Sequence record: NC_049830.1
DNA: 49,043 bases
Source of the DNA: Escherichia phage PGN590
Reading direction: 5' to 3' (one strand)
Made by a program: the position numbers and the translations under genes. Positions 10,547-18,337 of the stretch are shown here, piece after piece. Within the stretch, counting starts at the first letter, position 1. Every line of letters starts with the position of its first letter. The notes beneath the pieces were generated by a model that worked only from the letters and a program-made list of their open reading frames with translations, did no database searches and was not told the origin of the DNA.

Positions 10547-10657
10547 ATGAAATTTCTTGATATTTTATTTGGTGTGATGATTGGCCTTGCTGGTCTTTTA
10601 GTTGTCACTGCTGGTCTTGCTATTATTCTGATTGTTATCAAGGAGTTTATGAAATGA
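10547..10657 (+). CDS. small hydrophobic peptide (36 aa, single TM), not in ORF track
   Basis: MKFLDILFGVMIGLAGLLVVTAGLAIILIVIKEFMK; stop overlaps next start (ATGAAATGA). Confidence 0.35.
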   Translation: MKFLDILFGVMIGLAGLLVVTAGLAIILIVIKEFMK

Positions 10658-10878
10658 GTCAGGATGGATTTTTTGAGAGACTGCAAAAAGCGGAAGATGC
10701 TGGACTGAATAAAGAGGCCGCTCTTGAAGTTGCATATAAGATCAGGACACTTGATGATGCGTTGGGTGAAATGGATATGGAACATGAATGCGGTGCTGCA
10801 TTTGCAGATCCAACGATGATTGTTAATGATTGCGGCTGCAATTTTGATCCTAACTGTCCGCGATGCTTTCCGTTTTGA
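10654..10878 (+). CDS. hypothetical Cys-rich protein
   Basis: C-terminal CGCNFDPNCPRC cluster; start coupled to upstream peptide. Confidence 0.45.
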   Translation: MSQDGFFERLQKAEDAGLNKEAALEVAYKIRTLDDALGEMDMEHECGAAFADPTMIVNDCGCNFDPNCPRCFPF

Positions 10879-10887
10879 GGTGATGAA

Positions 10888-11598
10888 ATGCATAAAGGTT
10901 TGATTTTCTCTTTGTTTGATGGATCTGGTAAAGCCGTTAAAGATTGGGCTGACGCTGGATATAAATGCATTTGCTTTAATTACGATGATGCTGATCACGG
11001 TGATTACCACTCAGTGCGCATAATCCACGACAATATTTTTTACGTTAATGTGTGGATTGATGAGCTATTCAAATATACCGCAAAACTTGAAAATTGGGGT
11101 AAGCCTGATTTTATTATGGCGTTCCCTCCATGCACTGACCTTGCAAATAGCGGATCTCGCCATTGGGCTAAAAAACGCATTGAGAATCCATCGTTCCAGG
11201 ATGAAGCCGCCGACACTTGCAAAATAGCGGCGCAAATTGCTGATTATTTCGGTGTTCCGTACATGATAGAGAATCCTGTAGGCAAGCTGTCAACGCTATG
11301 GCGCAAGCCTGATTATACGTTCCATCCGTGCGATTATGCTGGCTATCTGCCGGAAGATGATAAACATCCCGACTTTCCTGATATTATTCCGGCGCGGGAT
11401 AGGTACTTTAAGAAAACATGCCTTTGGACTGGAAACGGATTTGTTATTCCTCCTCGCGCAACAATCCTTCCTAAAGAGGGCGACAAGGATAATCCTGGTT
11501 GGGCCAAAACTGGCGGAAAATCATCTCGCACAAAGATGATCCGCTCCCTCACACCGCGCGGTTTTGCTCGCGCAGTATTTGAAGCAAACGCAAAATAG
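10888..11598 (+). CDS. DNA (cytosine-5) methyltransferase-like protein, compact
   Basis: motif I-like LFDGSGKA, PC motif AFPPCTDLANSGS, ENV-like MIENPVG; no obvious target-recognition domain. Confidence 0.5.
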   Translation: MHKGLIFSLFDGSGKAVKDWADAGYKCICFNYDDADHGDYHSVRIIHDNIFYVNVWIDELFKYTAKLENWGKPDFIMAFPPCTDLANSGSRHWAKKRIENPSFQDEAADTCKIAAQIADYFGVPYMIENPVGKLSTLWRKPDYTFHPCDYAGYLPEDDKHPDFPDIIPARDRYFKKTCLWTGNGFVIPPRATILPKEGDKDNPGWAKTGGKSSRTKMIRSLTPRGFARAVFEANAK

Positions 11599-12274: not shown

Positions 12275-12288
12275 CATTTTTTGTTAAA
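12270..12288 (+). promoter_or_regulatory. intergenic repeat (variant AATAGCATTTTTTGTTAAA), promoter-like
   Basis: overlaps TAG of 12053-12274; TATTAT at 12309-12314 inside a hairpin. Confidence 0.5.
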
Positions 12289-12343
12289 TGCGGGTAGCAT
12301 TGGTGCGGTATTATTGCCGCATCAAAAAAAGGAGTTATCATCA

Positions 12344-13927
12344 ATGAATTTTTCGTTTGAAACCAATAAACTAACACCAAAACAAATTATCGAATTAGCT
12401 GATGCACAAGGATTGTCTCCGGTGCGCGTGTCCATTCAGGCAAACGGATACCGTCAATCGTCCAGCTTTTGGGGTGAGGTTAATGATGTTAATAACGGAA
12501 ATGATCGCTACCCTGTAATTTCTCTTGGTAATGATGTTGATGTTGTTGGTAAGTTGGCGCGCAACATTGCTCGATCAGTTCAGTTCCCTGAATCATCGGC
12601 ATATATGCACTTTATAGGCTGCGTGTCTGCTGCAATGCTTGGACGCTTCACGGTTGAGTATCACGGAACGGATCAGCCGACCGCTCTTTATGTTGTCACA
12701 AGCCAGCCTCCTTCAACTGGTAAATCCGCCGTTAACAGCCTGGCACTTGCTCCAATGGTTGCAGAAGTGGAAAGAATTAACGATCAGCGAAAGAAGGAAA
12801 GAAAAAAGATTCAGGCAAAGTTGGCAGGTCTTGCAAAAGAGATGAAAAGCGAGCGCTCCGGCGCTGATATGGAATCTCTGTACCAGGAGAAAGAAGATCT
12901 GGAAGAAAAACTTGAAAAGATGTGTGACATTGTTTTCCCTGTGTCCGACACCACGCCGGAAGGACTTGCAAGAATCAACAATCGCCAGGGTAACTTTGCT
13001 GTGATTTCAGACGAGGCAACGAGTATTAACAGCCTTTTAGGTCTGACATATGCCAATAGCGAACGTAAAACCAACAGCGAACTTGTGCTGAAAGCATGGG
13101 ATCATGGTCATGTTTCTATAGCTCGTGCAAACGCTGACAACAATATGAGTTTTAAAGCTCTTGGCTGTATGGCTGTAATTGCCCAGGATGAAACAATCAA
13201 TGCCATCATGGATGCAGGATCGCGCGGTATCGGTGTAAGTGAGCGTTATTTGCTTGTACGCGAGGAATCATTTTTAGGCCGTAGAAAGTTTGTTGATGAT
13301 AACGGTGATTCTACTTATGAGCCTGTTGATGGAGAACTGAAAAGCCAATATTTCAAGCTGATCCATAACATCATGAGTGAATCAAACATCCAGCTTAAGA
13401 TCAGCAAATCAGCAATGCGAGTTCTTAACATGGCTCGTCAGGAGATGGAACCGCACCTTGCTGATGGAGGAAAATATTCGCATACAATGCTGCGCGGCGC
13501 TCTTGGCAAAATGGATAAGCAGGTGATCAGGATTGCTTCGGTTTTGCACACTATCCGAAACTGGTTTAATCCTGGCGGATACCCTCAAAAGTCGAAAGAG
13601 ATTGAGGTTGAAACCGTTCAGGAAGCATTGCTGATGTTTAGCGAGTTGAGCAAAACATACATTAGCGCCGCCAACGCTTCTGGCTATGCTGGTGATGATG
13701 CTGAAATGGGTAAACTAATCGAGATCATCACTCGACACGGCAAGGCTAATAAGGGGATCTTGAATGTGCGCGCAATATATGAGGCTGCACGAAAAGTTAA
13801 GCCGTTTATTGGCCAGGCTGGCGTAATGAAGCGTATGGAAACGCAACTGCTGCCGATGCTTGAAGAAAGAAATTATATTTGTGTGATTAATGGAGTTGTT
13901 TTTGTAAATCCAACATTGCTGGGGTAA
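12344..13927 (+). CDS. P-loop NTPase (SF3-helicase-like Walker A)
   Basis: AAGGAG RBS; Walker A VVTSQPPSTGKSA; Walker B-like FAVISDEA; coiled-coil insert between them. Confidence 0.5.
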   Translation: MNFSFETNKLTPKQIIELADAQGLSPVRVSIQANGYRQSSSFWGEVNDVNNGNDRYPVISLGNDVDVVGKLARNIARSVQFPESSAYMHFIGCVSAAMLGRFTVEYHGTDQPTALYVVTSQPPSTGKSAVNSLALAPMVAEVERINDQRKKERKKIQAKLAGLAKEMKSERSGADMESLYQEKEDLEEKLEKMCDIVFPVSDTTPEGLARINNRQGNFAVISDEATSINSLLGLTYANSERKTNSELVLKAWDHGHVSIARANADNNMSFKALGCMAVIAQDETINAIMDAGSRGIGVSERYLLVREESFLGRRKFVDDNGDSTYEPVDGELKSQYFKLIHNIMSESNIQLKISKSAMRVLNMARQEMEPHLADGGKYSHTMLRGALGKMDKQVIRIASVLHTIRNWFNPGGYPQKSKEIEVETVQEALLMFSELSKTYISAANASGYAGDDAEMGKLIEIITRHGKANKGILNVRAIYEAARKVKPFIGQAGVMKRMETQLLPMLEERNYICVINGVVFVNPTLLG

Positions 13928-14322: not shown

Positions 14323-14445
14323 AGACTTCATGTACGCAATGTTAACGCTAATTCATTCTGACATGCGAGCGTTTAACATATCAGAGCATAATTTGTGCGA
14401 TGATGACGGCGTTTTGTTGGTTACTGTAAAGCGCATTGAATAACA

Positions 14446-14475
14446 AAGGAGGCGTTAAGCCTCCTTTTTCTTTTC
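14446..14475 (+). terminator. intrinsic terminator ending rightward early operon
   Basis: AAGGAGGC-gttaa-GCCTCCTT then TTTCTTTTC; overlaps 3' end of convergent spanin gene. Confidence 0.6.
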
Positions 14476-17635: not shown

Positions 17636-18337
17636 TTAACTCCGCTTTCTTGCTCGACGCTCTGCCACTGACGGGCAAATGTCGCTGATCTTAACGTATC
17701 GCGTTTTCTGCTGCTCACCTTCTTTCAGTTCGCGCATGATGAAAATAACGCTGCCTTTGTTGTTTCCCTGCACTGGTTTACCTGTAAGCGCTGAAGTGAA
17801 CGCCAGGCGTCCGGTACGGGAATATTCTGTTCCGCGCTCCTGGTAAACTTCTCCAGTGATCCAGATTATTTCCGCTGCGTGCTGTTGCGCCTCATAAAAC
17901 CATCCTGTTGACGTGTCGCAAGGTAAAAGCATGTCGATCTGGTTGCCGTGCTCCATTTGCTCAATTGTTTTCTTAACAAACGGCGTGATATTGCTGTACG
18001 GTGGGTTAAGCCATATATGCTTGTTACTACCCCACCAACGCTTTAAGCAATTTGTCTCCTTGCTGTAGAATTTTTCACATACAGCATTTTCTTTGCTTGC
18101 CGCAGCGTCGATGTCATAATCACCGTATTCACTTTCCATCCATGCGACAAGCTCAGACGGCGTAGACCACAAATCTCGCACAACGTCCGGCGTATTGCTG
18201 CCGTTATAGCGGTTGCCAGTGACTTTATAATATTGATTTGGTTTAACAGCCTGGTAATAGCCTCCGGTAGCAAGAGCATTGCCAATGAATGTTTCTCGTT
18301 CGATTTGTTCAAATGTCACTTCGGTTTCTTTGATCAT
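17636..18337 (-). CDS. dam: DNA N6-adenine methyltransferase (phage Dam-like)
   Basis: catalytic NPPY motif (HIWLNPPYSNI). Confidence 0.8.
   Translation of the reverse strand: MIKETEVTFEQIERETFIGNALATGGYYQAVKPNQYYKVTGNRYNGSNTPDVVRDLWSTPSELVAWMESEYGDYDIDAAASKENAVCEKFYSKETNCLKRWWGSNKHIWLNPPYSNITPFVKKTIEQMEHGNQIDMLLPCDTSTGWFYEAQQHAAEIIWITGEVYQERGTEYSRTGRLAFTSALTGKPVQGNNKGSVIFIMRELKEGEQQKTRYVKISDICPSVAERRARKRS

What the first reader, a model, noticed from the sequence alone, without database searches (positions are those of the whole stretch)
10888..11598. Compact C5-cytosine-methyltransferase-like protein in the early operon, in addition to Dam
The 236-aa protein carries, in the canonical order, an FxGxG-like motif (LFDGSGKA), a Pro-Cys motif (AFPPCTDLANSGS) and an ENV-like motif (MIENPVG), but is too short to contain a conventional target-recognition domain. 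The genome also encodes a Dam-type adenine methyltransferase (17636-18337). A second, minimal cytosine-directed enzyme could be an anti-restriction modification enzyme, a DNA hypermodification enzyme, or a methyltransferase-fold protein with another substrate.
Basis: inference. Interest (0 to 1): 0.55.

Follow-up and report, generated by a model that had tools for sequence, protein, structure and literature searches.

The report
Known minimal phage cytosine-C5 DNA methyltransferase
The gene is a real but already known, unusually small phage DNA cytosine-C5 methyltransferase; a 97%-identical copy in a sister phage has been shown to make 5-methylcytosine and to set off the bacterial retron Ec86 defence, so the finding is correct but not new.

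Summary
Window 10888-11598 (+) encodes a 236-aa protein with FDGSG (motif I), PPC (Cys82, motif IV) and ENP (Glu128, motif VI) in canonical order. A Dam gene lies at 17636-18337, on the minus strand.

The window is the complete genome of Escherichia phage PGN590 (T1-like, Hanrivervirus-like). This exact protein is deposited as "DNA methyltransferase" (YP_009902191.1).

It is 97% identical to the KarlJaspers "Dcm-like C5 cytosine methyltransferase". The orthologue in a KarlJaspers strain was shown to put 5mC on retron Ec86 msDNA and trigger that defence. A C82A/E128A/K175A/K176A mutant was inactive; all four residues are present here.

The family (PHROG 757) is large: about 1,500 phage records and 2,123 clusters at 50% identity. 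It is uniformly short, with about 22 residues where a TRD should be and no motif X. It falls below Pfam PF00145's threshold.

It is not an orthologue of E. coli Dcm. Its CCWGG specificity is assumed in the literature, not mapped, and that is the only open point.

Verdict: interpretation supported, already known, low interest.

The parts
10877..10882 (+). Shine-Dalgarno sequence GAGGTG, 5 nt upstream of the ATG. Position -9 (G10879) lies inside it.
   Evidence: Sequence read directly. Two published Ec86-escaper phages carry a single-base change 9 bp upstream of the dcm start codon. That this change disrupts the SD is my inference.
10888..11598 (+). CDS of the 236-aa minimal DNA cytosine-C5 methyltransferase (identical to YP_009902191.1 of Escherichia phage PGN590).
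10912..10935 (+). Motif I (LFDGSGKA, residues 9-16), the predicted AdoMet-binding glycine loop after strand beta-1.
   Evidence: Aligns to M.HhaI F18-AGLGG in hhalign. G12/S13/G14 are invariant in close relatives. Conservation is looser in the most distant set.
11122..11136 (+). Motif IV (FPPCT, residues 79-83) with the catalytic nucleophile Cys82 (nt 11131-11133).
   Evidence: Aligns to HhaI P80-C81 and to the DNMT3B PC motif. Cys is conserved in 95% of 104 diverse members. C82 is one of four residues whose joint mutation inactivates the orthologue.
11263..11280 (+). Motif VI (MIENPV, residues 126-131; ENP variant of ENV) with Glu128 (nt 11269-11271).
   Evidence: Aligns to HhaI E119-N-V. E128 is conserved in 99%, N129 in 91% and P130 in 98%. 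E128 was mutated in the inactive orthologue.
11395..11439 (+). Motif VIII-like region (RDRYFKKTCLWTGNG, residues 170-184), including K175/K176 and strand 177-182.
   Evidence: D171, Y173, K175, T177 and W180 are conserved in at least 92%. K175/K176 were named substrate-binding residues in the published orthologue. Equivalence to the canonical QxRxR motif is not settled, because hhalign placed that motif elsewhere.
11443..11511 (+). Variable loop (residues 186-208) occupying the position of the target-recognition domain. It is the most variable and lowest-confidence part of the C-terminal half.
   Evidence: Mean column entropy is 2.75 bits against 1.5-1.9 in the flanks. Loop length is typically 20-24 residues across the family. 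Block-mean pLDDT is 65-83 here. It maps onto HhaI about 190-270.
11539..11577 (+). Motif IX (IRSLTPRGFARAV, residues 218-230). The protein ends 6 residues later, with no motif X.
   Evidence: Aligns to the HhaI motif IX block (T271-M283, TRKLHPRECARVM) in hhalign. Aligns to E. coli Dcm R-RLTPRECAR in BLASTP. R219 is conserved in 94% and the block is invariant in close relatives. C-terminal tails are mostly 6-16 residues.
17636..18337 (-). Second, unrelated methyltransferase of the genome: Dam-type N6-adenine DNA methyltransferase (233 aa).
   Evidence: Pfam PF05869 E=1.1e-60. NPPY at residue 111. The syntenic gene is annotated 'Dam-like N6-adenine methyltransferase' in JakobBernoulli.
14445..14467 (+). 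Intrinsic-terminator-like hairpin (9 pairs, then a T-run) that closes the co-directional block containing the methyltransferase.
   Evidence: sequence confirmed.

Best explanation
The gene encodes an autonomous, orphan, AdoMet-dependent DNA cytosine-C5 methyltransferase with no restriction partner. It belongs to a large phage-specific 'minimal' family (PHROG 757). Inferred mechanism, from the canonical C5-MTase pathway: the FDGSG loop binds AdoMet; the target cytosine is flipped out; Cys82 of the PC motif attacks C6; Glu128 of the ENP motif protonates N3; the methyl group goes to C5. Target reading must rely on the catalytic loop after Cys82 and a loop of only about 22 residues (186-208), because the enzyme has no conventional TRD and no motif X. 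Expressed with the replication genes, it methylates whatever DNA is in the cell. The presumed benefit is protection of progeny phage DNA from m5C-sensitive restriction; this step is inferred, not shown. A demonstrated cost is that it also methylates the stem-loop of retron Ec86/Eco1 msDNA, which activates that abortive-infection system. Shown by others on an orthologue: 5mC formation dependent on the four catalytic/binding residues, retron triggering, and dispensability for plaque growth. Shown here: fold, motif architecture, conservation, near-identity to the KarlJaspers (Bas06) protein and synteny with it. The sequence specificity (assumed to be CCWGG) is not established.
Against: The protein itself fails Pfam PF00145's gathering score (11.2 against 22 bits). 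It has no NCBIfam hit. Sequence-level matches to solved C5-MTases are insignificant (E 0.18-1), and the hhalign probability is only 11%. Homology therefore rests mainly on fold plus motifs. It lacks motif X and a TRD, two features of every characterised C5-MTase. No experiment was done on this exact protein. The benefit to the phage is unproven: the BASEL study found no simple link between methyltransferase genes and restriction resistance in Drexlerviridae, and escaper phages lacking the gene still plaque. The published 5mC measurement was on msDNA in over-expression, not on virion DNA.
Confidence: 0.85

Rival explanations
1. The enzyme is an active DNA C5-methyltransferase, but its selected role is not protection from restriction. 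It might instead mark phage or host DNA for regulation, replication or packaging control, or counter another defence. Restriction evasion would then be incidental or absent.
For: Most Drexlerviridae remain very sensitive to restriction-modification systems, and no pattern links methyltransferase genes to resistance. The gene is accessory: it is absent from T1 and dispensable in escapers. It is consistently placed among replication genes.
Against: The RM systems tested in BASEL are mostly adenine-directed, so they say little about m5C-sensitive enzymes (my knowledge). Co-occurrence and fusion with adenine MTases fits a general modification and anti-restriction toolkit. No regulatory target is known.
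Confidence: 0.1
2. It transfers a group other than methyl to cytosine C5, for example carboxymethyl from Cx-SAM as phage CmoX does. It would then be the first step of a DNA hypermodification.
Confidence: 0.03
3. Its true substrate is RNA, in the manner of the DNMT2-type tRNA m5C methyltransferases, and DNA methylation is a side activity.
Against: DNA MTases score higher. The orthologue raises 5mC on DNA. Family members are fused or adjacent to DNA adenine MTases.
Confidence: 0.02

Closest known systems
Phage 'Dcm' of Escherichia phage KarlJaspers (Bas06, QXV82308.1) and its strain K42, the trigger of retron Ec86/Eco1 (Wang et al., bioRxiv 10.1101/2023.08.16.553469; Cell Rep 2024;43:114857)
   Same: Same 236-aa length and 711-bp gene. 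97% identity without gaps. Same neighbours. Same C82, E128, K175 and K176. Same 90% cluster.
   Different: Six substitutions relative to Bas06 (H2Y, H41Q, I98L, A115S, Q116H, G198D). The K42 sequence itself was not available to me. The PGN590 protein has not been tested.
Catalytic domain of mammalian DNMT3A/DNMT3B
   Different: Only 15-17% identity. DNMT3 keeps motif X and is about 285 aa. It works as a DNMT3-DNMT3L/DNMT3 tetramer reading CpG (my knowledge). Oligomeric state and specificity of the phage enzyme are unknown.
Canonical bacterial type II C5-MTases, e.g. M.HhaI and M.HaeIII (Pfam PF00145)
   Different: 236 against 327 aa. About 22-30 residues instead of a TRD of about 80. No motif X. 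Below Pfam's gathering score. No cognate restriction enzyme.
E. coli Dcm (b1961, 472 aa) / M.EcoRII, CCWGG-specific
   Same: Same product (5mC) and the same name in annotations. The literature assumes the same CCWGG target.
   Different: No significant similarity: BLASTP E=1.7, hhalign probability 1.3%. Half the size and no Dcm TRD. No NCBIfam hit at all. No vsr partner gene.
Phage CmoX, the DNA cytosine C5-carboxymethyltransferase (PDB 8yf3)
   Different: CmoX is 333 aa with motif X Arg350, and is linked to cmoA and cmoY genes. None of these is present here.

Membership tests
DNA cytosine-C5 methyltransferase superfamily (Posfai motifs / Pfam PF00145) | Class I Rossmann-like MTase fold specifically resembling C5-MTases | tested here: met
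DNA cytosine-C5 methyltransferase superfamily (Posfai motifs / Pfam PF00145) | Motif I FxGxG (AdoMet binding) | tested here: met
   F10-D-G12-S-G14 aligns to HhaI F18-A-G-L-G-G. Invariant in close relatives. Less well aligned in the most distant set.
DNA cytosine-C5 methyltransferase superfamily (Posfai motifs / Pfam PF00145) | Motif IV Pro-Cys with catalytic cysteine | tested here: met
   P81-C82 aligns to HhaI P80-C81. Cys is conserved in 95% of 104 members.
DNA cytosine-C5 methyltransferase superfamily (Posfai motifs / Pfam PF00145) | Motif VI ENV with catalytic glutamate | tested here: met
   E128-N-P aligns to HhaI E119-N-V. Glu is conserved in 99%.
DNA cytosine-C5 methyltransferase superfamily (Posfai motifs / Pfam PF00145) | Motif VIII QxRxR | tested here: inconclusive
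   R170-D-R172-Y is a candidate, but R170 is kept in only 53% and position 172 is mostly Ala. hhalign paired HhaI Q161-R165 with a different segment.
DNA cytosine-C5 methyltransferase superfamily (Posfai motifs / Pfam PF00145) | Target-recognition domain of about 80 residues or more between motifs VIII and IX | tested here: not met
   Only residues 186-208/215 lie there. The family loop length is mostly 20-24 residues.
DNA cytosine-C5 methyltransferase superfamily (Posfai motifs / Pfam PF00145) | Motif IX (RxLTxRExARLQ) | tested here: met
   I218-RSLTPRGFARAV aligns to HhaI RKLHPRECARVM and to Dcm RRLTPRECARLM.
DNA cytosine-C5 methyltransferase superfamily (Posfai motifs / Pfam PF00145) | Motif X (GN[SA]V helix) | tested here: not met
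   The chain ends 6 residues after motif IX. The global hhalign stops at HhaI residue 297, before F302-GNSV. Tails are mostly 6-16 residues across the family.
DNA cytosine-C5 methyltransferase superfamily (Posfai motifs / Pfam PF00145) | Score above Pfam PF00145's gathering threshold | tested here: not met
   11.2 bits against 22, E=0.24, covering only residues 7-93. 19 of 30 relatives hit at E<=1, best 1.3e-6.
DNA cytosine-C5 methyltransferase superfamily (Posfai motifs / Pfam PF00145) | Formation of 5-methylcytosine in DNA | not testable with these tools
   Published for the K42 orthologue by LC-MS, with a quadruple-mutant control.
PHROG 757 (phage minimal 'DNA methyltransferase') | Full-length profile match | tested here: met
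   E=1.1e-86, residues 1-235 on profile positions 12-219 of 247.
E. coli Dcm / M.EcoRII family (CCWGG) | Specific sequence similarity including the Dcm TRD; NCBIfam model hit | tested here: not met
   BLASTP E=1.7, hhalign probability 1.3%. No NCBIfam family at E<=10.
E. coli Dcm / M.EcoRII family (CCWGG) | Methylation of the inner C of CCWGG | not testable with these tools
   Assumed, not mapped, in the retron paper. CCWGG is not avoided in the genome (119 observed, 114 expected), which is uninformative.
Triggers of retron Ec86/Eco1 | Expression activates Ec86; loss lets the phage escape | not testable with these tools
   Shown for the K42 orthologue. Expected here from 97% identity to the Bas06 protein.
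CmoX-type C5-carboxymethyltransferases | Arg at the HhaI Asn304 position (motif X), with linked cmoA or amide ligase genes | tested here: not met
   No motif X. Neighbours are unknown small proteins and a helicase. None is annotated in the 21.5-kb syntenic stretch of JakobBernoulli. The whole proteome was not scanned.

The most novel reading that the evidence does not exclude
The enzyme's target is not E. coli Dcm's CCWGG. A C5-methyltransferase with only a ~22-residue loop in place of a TRD, and no motif X, would instead read a very short or relaxed motif. Alternatively it reaches specificity in a new way, for example as a DNMT3-like dimer reading half-sites. It would then define the smallest functional architecture of a DNA C5-MTase, one that PF00145-based methylome surveys systematically miss. 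Reasons this stays open: there is no homology to the Dcm TRD. The published assay strain MG1655 carries its own dcm, yet msDNA 5mC was low without the phage enzyme and host Dcm is never discussed. Counter-argument, from my own knowledge of McrBC: the enzyme is tolerated in McrBC-positive K-12 without the retron, which favours a pyrimidine-mC context such as C-mC-WGG.
Probability: 0.3. Interest if true: 0.5.

Novelty: already known. Interest (0 to 1): 0.2.

Why it matters
For this genome it matters little. The gene is correctly annotated in GenBank and RefSeq, and its family has a published function: 5mC formation and triggering of retron Ec86/Eco1. Two practical points follow. First, PGN590 is predicted to be sensitive to retron Ec86 (native in E. 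coli BL21) through this gene, and to escape by losing it. That is relevant to host-range prediction and phage-therapy design. Second, this very abundant family scores below Pfam PF00145's threshold (about 1,500 phage records; 2,123 clusters at 50% identity). Methylome studies that find m5C enzymes with that model (for example the methods quoted) will overlook it. The one question of real scientific interest is how an enzyme without a TRD or motif X chooses its target, and what that target is.

Tried and rejected
1. NCBIfam scan: no hit at E<=10.

2. Sequence searches of the PDB with the protein and with a family profile: only insignificant DNMT3B and HaeIII matches around motifs I-IV. The fold search was needed.

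3. Split-enzyme idea (a separate TRD or motif-X subunit encoded next door, as in M.AquI): rejected. Neighbours differ among Hanrivervirus, Vequintavirus, Webervirus-like and Pararheinheimera phages, and none has a known function.

4. 'Dcm orthologue' idea: rejected by direct comparison with b1961.

5. Inferring specificity from motif avoidance, using T1 (which lacks the gene) as a control: inconclusive. CCWGG O/E is 1.04 here against 0.82 in T1. Other differences (CCSGG, GGCC) point to unprotected sites rather than to the target.

6. The peer-reviewed Cell Reports paper is not in the library. I relied on the preprint and on later citations.

7. Literature searches for methylomes or restriction digests of Hanrivervirus/Drexlerviridae DNA found only annotation-level statements. 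The PLoS Biol 2025 retron paper concerns an N6-adenine MTase, not this family.

They were repeated without it.

9. Whether the last helix occupies motif X's position, and whether the protein dimerises, could not be examined.

Full report
OBSERVATION. A Shine-Dalgarno sequence, GAGGTG, lies at 10877-10882. LFDGSGKA is residues 9-16, the Pro-Cys motif is FPPCT with Cys82, and MIENPV holds Glu128. The second methyltransferase at 17636-18337 is real: Pfam Dam PF05869 at E=1.1e-60, with an NPPY motif. It lies on the minus strand.

WHAT GENOME THIS IS. The window is the complete 49,043-bp genome of Escherichia phage PGN590. An exact look-up finds the protein as QKL16937.1 / YP_009902191.1, 'DNA methyltransferase', on a 49,043-bp contig. 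The region is 93-96% identical to Hanrivervirus phages of the T1-like family Drexlerviridae: herni, G29-2, egaa, JakobBernoulli, pSf-1 and KarlJaspers. There the syntenic gene is annotated variously as 'hypothetical protein', 'putative site specific DNA methylase' or 'Dcm-like C5 cytosine methyltransferase'.

HOW COMMON IT IS. tblastn finds a homologue in 1,502 phage records, across Escherichia, Klebsiella, Salmonella, Shigella, Vibrio and other phages. These include large myoviruses of 137-164 kb. The 5.8-billion protein set holds 3,362 homologues. An exhaustive profile search finds 2,123 clusters at 50% identity. Nearly all are 200-260 aa and match end to end, so the short length is a family trait and not a truncation. 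The gene is accessory: phage T1 itself has only Dam and no homologue. Thirty-two of 5,426 complete E. coli genomes carry a diverged chromosomal copy, which I take to be prophage-borne (not checked).

IS IT A C5-METHYLTRANSFERASE? Sequence profiles alone are equivocal. PHROG 757 'DNA methyltransferase' matches at E=1.1e-86. Pfam PF00145 gives only 11.2 bits against a threshold of 22. NCBIfam gives nothing. PDB sequence searches give E=0.18-1 to DNMT3B and HaeIII. Among 30 relatives, 19 touch PF00145 at E<=1, with a best E of 1.3e-6, and no other Pfam family recurs.

Foldseek agrees.

I then built a canonical profile from 78 viral C5-MTases, anchored on an M.HhaI sequence that I validated against 10mh_A. 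The profile-profile alignment is co-linear over 204 columns:
- F10-DGSG aligns to F18-AGLGG (motif I).
- P81-C82 aligns to P80-C81 (motif IV).
- E128-NP aligns to E119-NV (motif VI).
- I218-RSLTPRGFARAV aligns to the HhaI motif IX block (T271-M283, TRKLHPRECARVM).

The pairwise E-value is 0.0028 and the probability only 11%. The alignment is useful for mapping motifs rather than as proof of homology.

Conservation shows selection on catalysis. In 104 members that are 30-52% identical to the window protein, Cys82 is kept in 95%, Glu128 in 99%, Asn129 in 91%, Pro130 in 98%, Lys175 in 93% and Arg219 in 94%.

WHAT IS UNUSUAL IN THE ARCHITECTURE. M.HhaI has about 80 residues between motifs VIII and IX. 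This protein has residues 186-208/215 there. That loop is the most variable part of the C-terminal half (2.75 bits against 1.5-1.9 in the flanks) and the least confident part of the model. It is usually 20-24 residues long across the family. The protein also ends six residues after motif IX, and family tails are mostly 6-16 residues. So there is no sequence counterpart of motif X, the GN[SA]V helix. Motif VIII could not be assigned with confidence. No neighbouring gene is conserved across phage groups, so a separate recognition subunit is unlikely.

EXPERIMENTAL LITERATURE. The function has already been studied. Wang et al. (bioRxiv 10.1101/2023.08.16.553469; published as Cell Rep 2024;43:114857) selected escapers of retron Ec86 in phage K42, a KarlJaspers strain.
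[quoted passage not shown] - In the window, position -9 is G10879, in the middle of the Shine-Dalgarno sequence. I infer those mutations weaken translation.
- Expressing the gene was toxic only in cells with Ec86.
- A C82A/E128A/K175A/K176A mutant was inert.
- LC-MS showed high 5mC on msDNA only with the wild-type enzyme.
- Thirty-four of 35 Ec86-sensitive phages encoded the gene.

The window protein is 230/236 identical to the KarlJaspers Bas06 protein, with no gaps and all four residues in place. A 2026 NSMB paper cites the mechanism as established. The BASEL paper notes that Drexlerviridae abundantly encode N6-adenine and C5-cytosine methyltransferases. It found no simple link to restriction resistance.

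MECHANISM. The best-supported account is an autonomous orphan AdoMet-dependent DNA C5-methyltransferase working by the canonical Cys-addition mechanism: Cys82 as nucleophile, Glu128 as proton donor, FDGSG as the cofactor loop. This step is inferred from the family's well-known chemistry. It is made together with the replication genes. It methylates DNA in the infected cell. It presumably shields progeny DNA from m5C-sensitive restriction, which is inferred and unproven. It exposes the phage to retron Ec86/Eco1, which senses methylation of its msDNA stem-loop; this was shown for the orthologue. Genomic context fits a DNA-modification role. One family member is fused to a D12 N6-adenine DNA MTase. 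A Pararheinheimera phage has an N6-MTase immediately upstream. A vequintavirus has one 1.3 kb upstream.

RIVALS. A Cx-SAM-dependent carboxymethyltransferase of the CmoX type is unlikely. CmoX selectivity rests on a motif X arginine and on linked cmoA and ligase genes, none of which is present, and the orthologue's product matched a 5mC standard. An RNA substrate of the DNMT2 type has no support beyond generic fold similarity. A role other than anti-restriction remains possible.

WHAT IS NOT KNOWN. The name 'Dcm' describes the chemistry, not orthology. Against E. coli Dcm (b1961, 472 aa), BLASTP gives E=1.7 and hhalign gives 1.3% probability. Only the generic motifs IV and IX align. The retron paper took CCWGG specificity from E. 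coli Dcm. It supported this only by showing that mutating CCTGG in the msDNA abolishes defence. Such mutations could equally disturb effector contacts. The assay strain MG1655 carries its own dcm, yet msDNA 5mC was low without the phage enzyme, and the text never mentions host Dcm. Genome statistics do not help. CCWGG is at expectation here (119 observed, 114 expected) and slightly low in T1 (83 observed, 102 expected). One indirect constraint comes from my own knowledge that McrBC restricts purine-mC. The enzyme is tolerated in McrBC-positive K-12 without the retron, which favours a pyrimidine-mC context such as C-mC-WGG. The specificity, and how it is achieved without a TRD, is the only open question.

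VERDICT. Novelty is 'already known': the exact protein is deposited and annotated, the family is catalogued (PHROG 757), and a 97%-identical orthologue has a published activity and a published role as a retron trigger. Interest is low (0.2). The residual value lies in the unmapped specificity of a TRD-less, motif-X-less C5-MTase. It also lies in the practical point that PF00145-based screens, such as the methods quoted, miss this abundant family.

Noticed in passing
window 1-49043: The window is the whole genome of Escherichia phage PGN590 (49,043 bp). The methyltransferase is identical to YP_009902191.1 / QKL16937.1.
   Followed up: yes
window, whole sequence: Strong avoidance of some short palindromes. 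CCSGG has only 2 sites (11.3 expected; T1 has 65). GGCC has O/E 0.48 and AGCT 0.65. AAGCTT, GATATC, GCATGC and CCGCGG are absent. GATC and CCWGG are at expectation. This suggests selection by host restriction enzymes at sites the phage's own methyltransferases do not cover.
   Followed up: partly
protein P0251 (563 aa, metagenomic); BFVD A0A6J5SE15 (1397 aa) and A0A6J5NPY6 (1126 aa): The minimal C5-MTase module occurs fused to a D12-class N6-adenine DNA methyltransferase. It also appears as a domain inside two giant phage proteins, one annotated as a helicase.
   Followed up: partly
window 10654-10878 (+): The 74-aa ORF just upstream (PHROG 9323, unknown function, Cys-rich C-terminus CGCNFDPNCPRC) is in the same reading frame as the methyltransferase. 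The two are separated only by a TGA and three codons.
   Followed up: no
cluster of the window protein: The same 90%-identity cluster holds 236-aa and 257-aa forms. The latter are in Warwickvirus phages, with a 21-residue N-terminal extension or a different start call.
   Followed up: no
L087 (phage T1, NC_005833): T1 has Dam (ST20) but no homologue of this gene. Its syntenic region next to the DUF3987 helicase ST9 carries an HNH endonuclease and small ORFs instead. The gene is therefore accessory within Drexlerviridae.
   Followed up: yes
window 14445-14467: A strong terminator-like hairpin (AAAGGAGGC-GTTAA-GCCTCCTTT followed by a T-run) lies between the rightward replication/modification block and the leftward lysis genes.
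   Followed up: no
window 12281-13927 (+): The 548-aa 'helicase' downstream is a DUF3987 protein (Pfam E=2e-43; PHROG 2373 'DNA helicase', E=3e-245). Relatives annotate a shorter 527-aa form, so the TTG start listed here is probably too far upstream.
   Followed up: no
literature (bioRxiv 10.1101/2023.08.16.553469): The retron Ec86 study used dcm+ MG1655 yet reports low 5mC on msDNA without the phage enzyme, and never discusses host Dcm. The claimed CCWGG target of the phage enzyme is therefore untested.
   Followed up: partly
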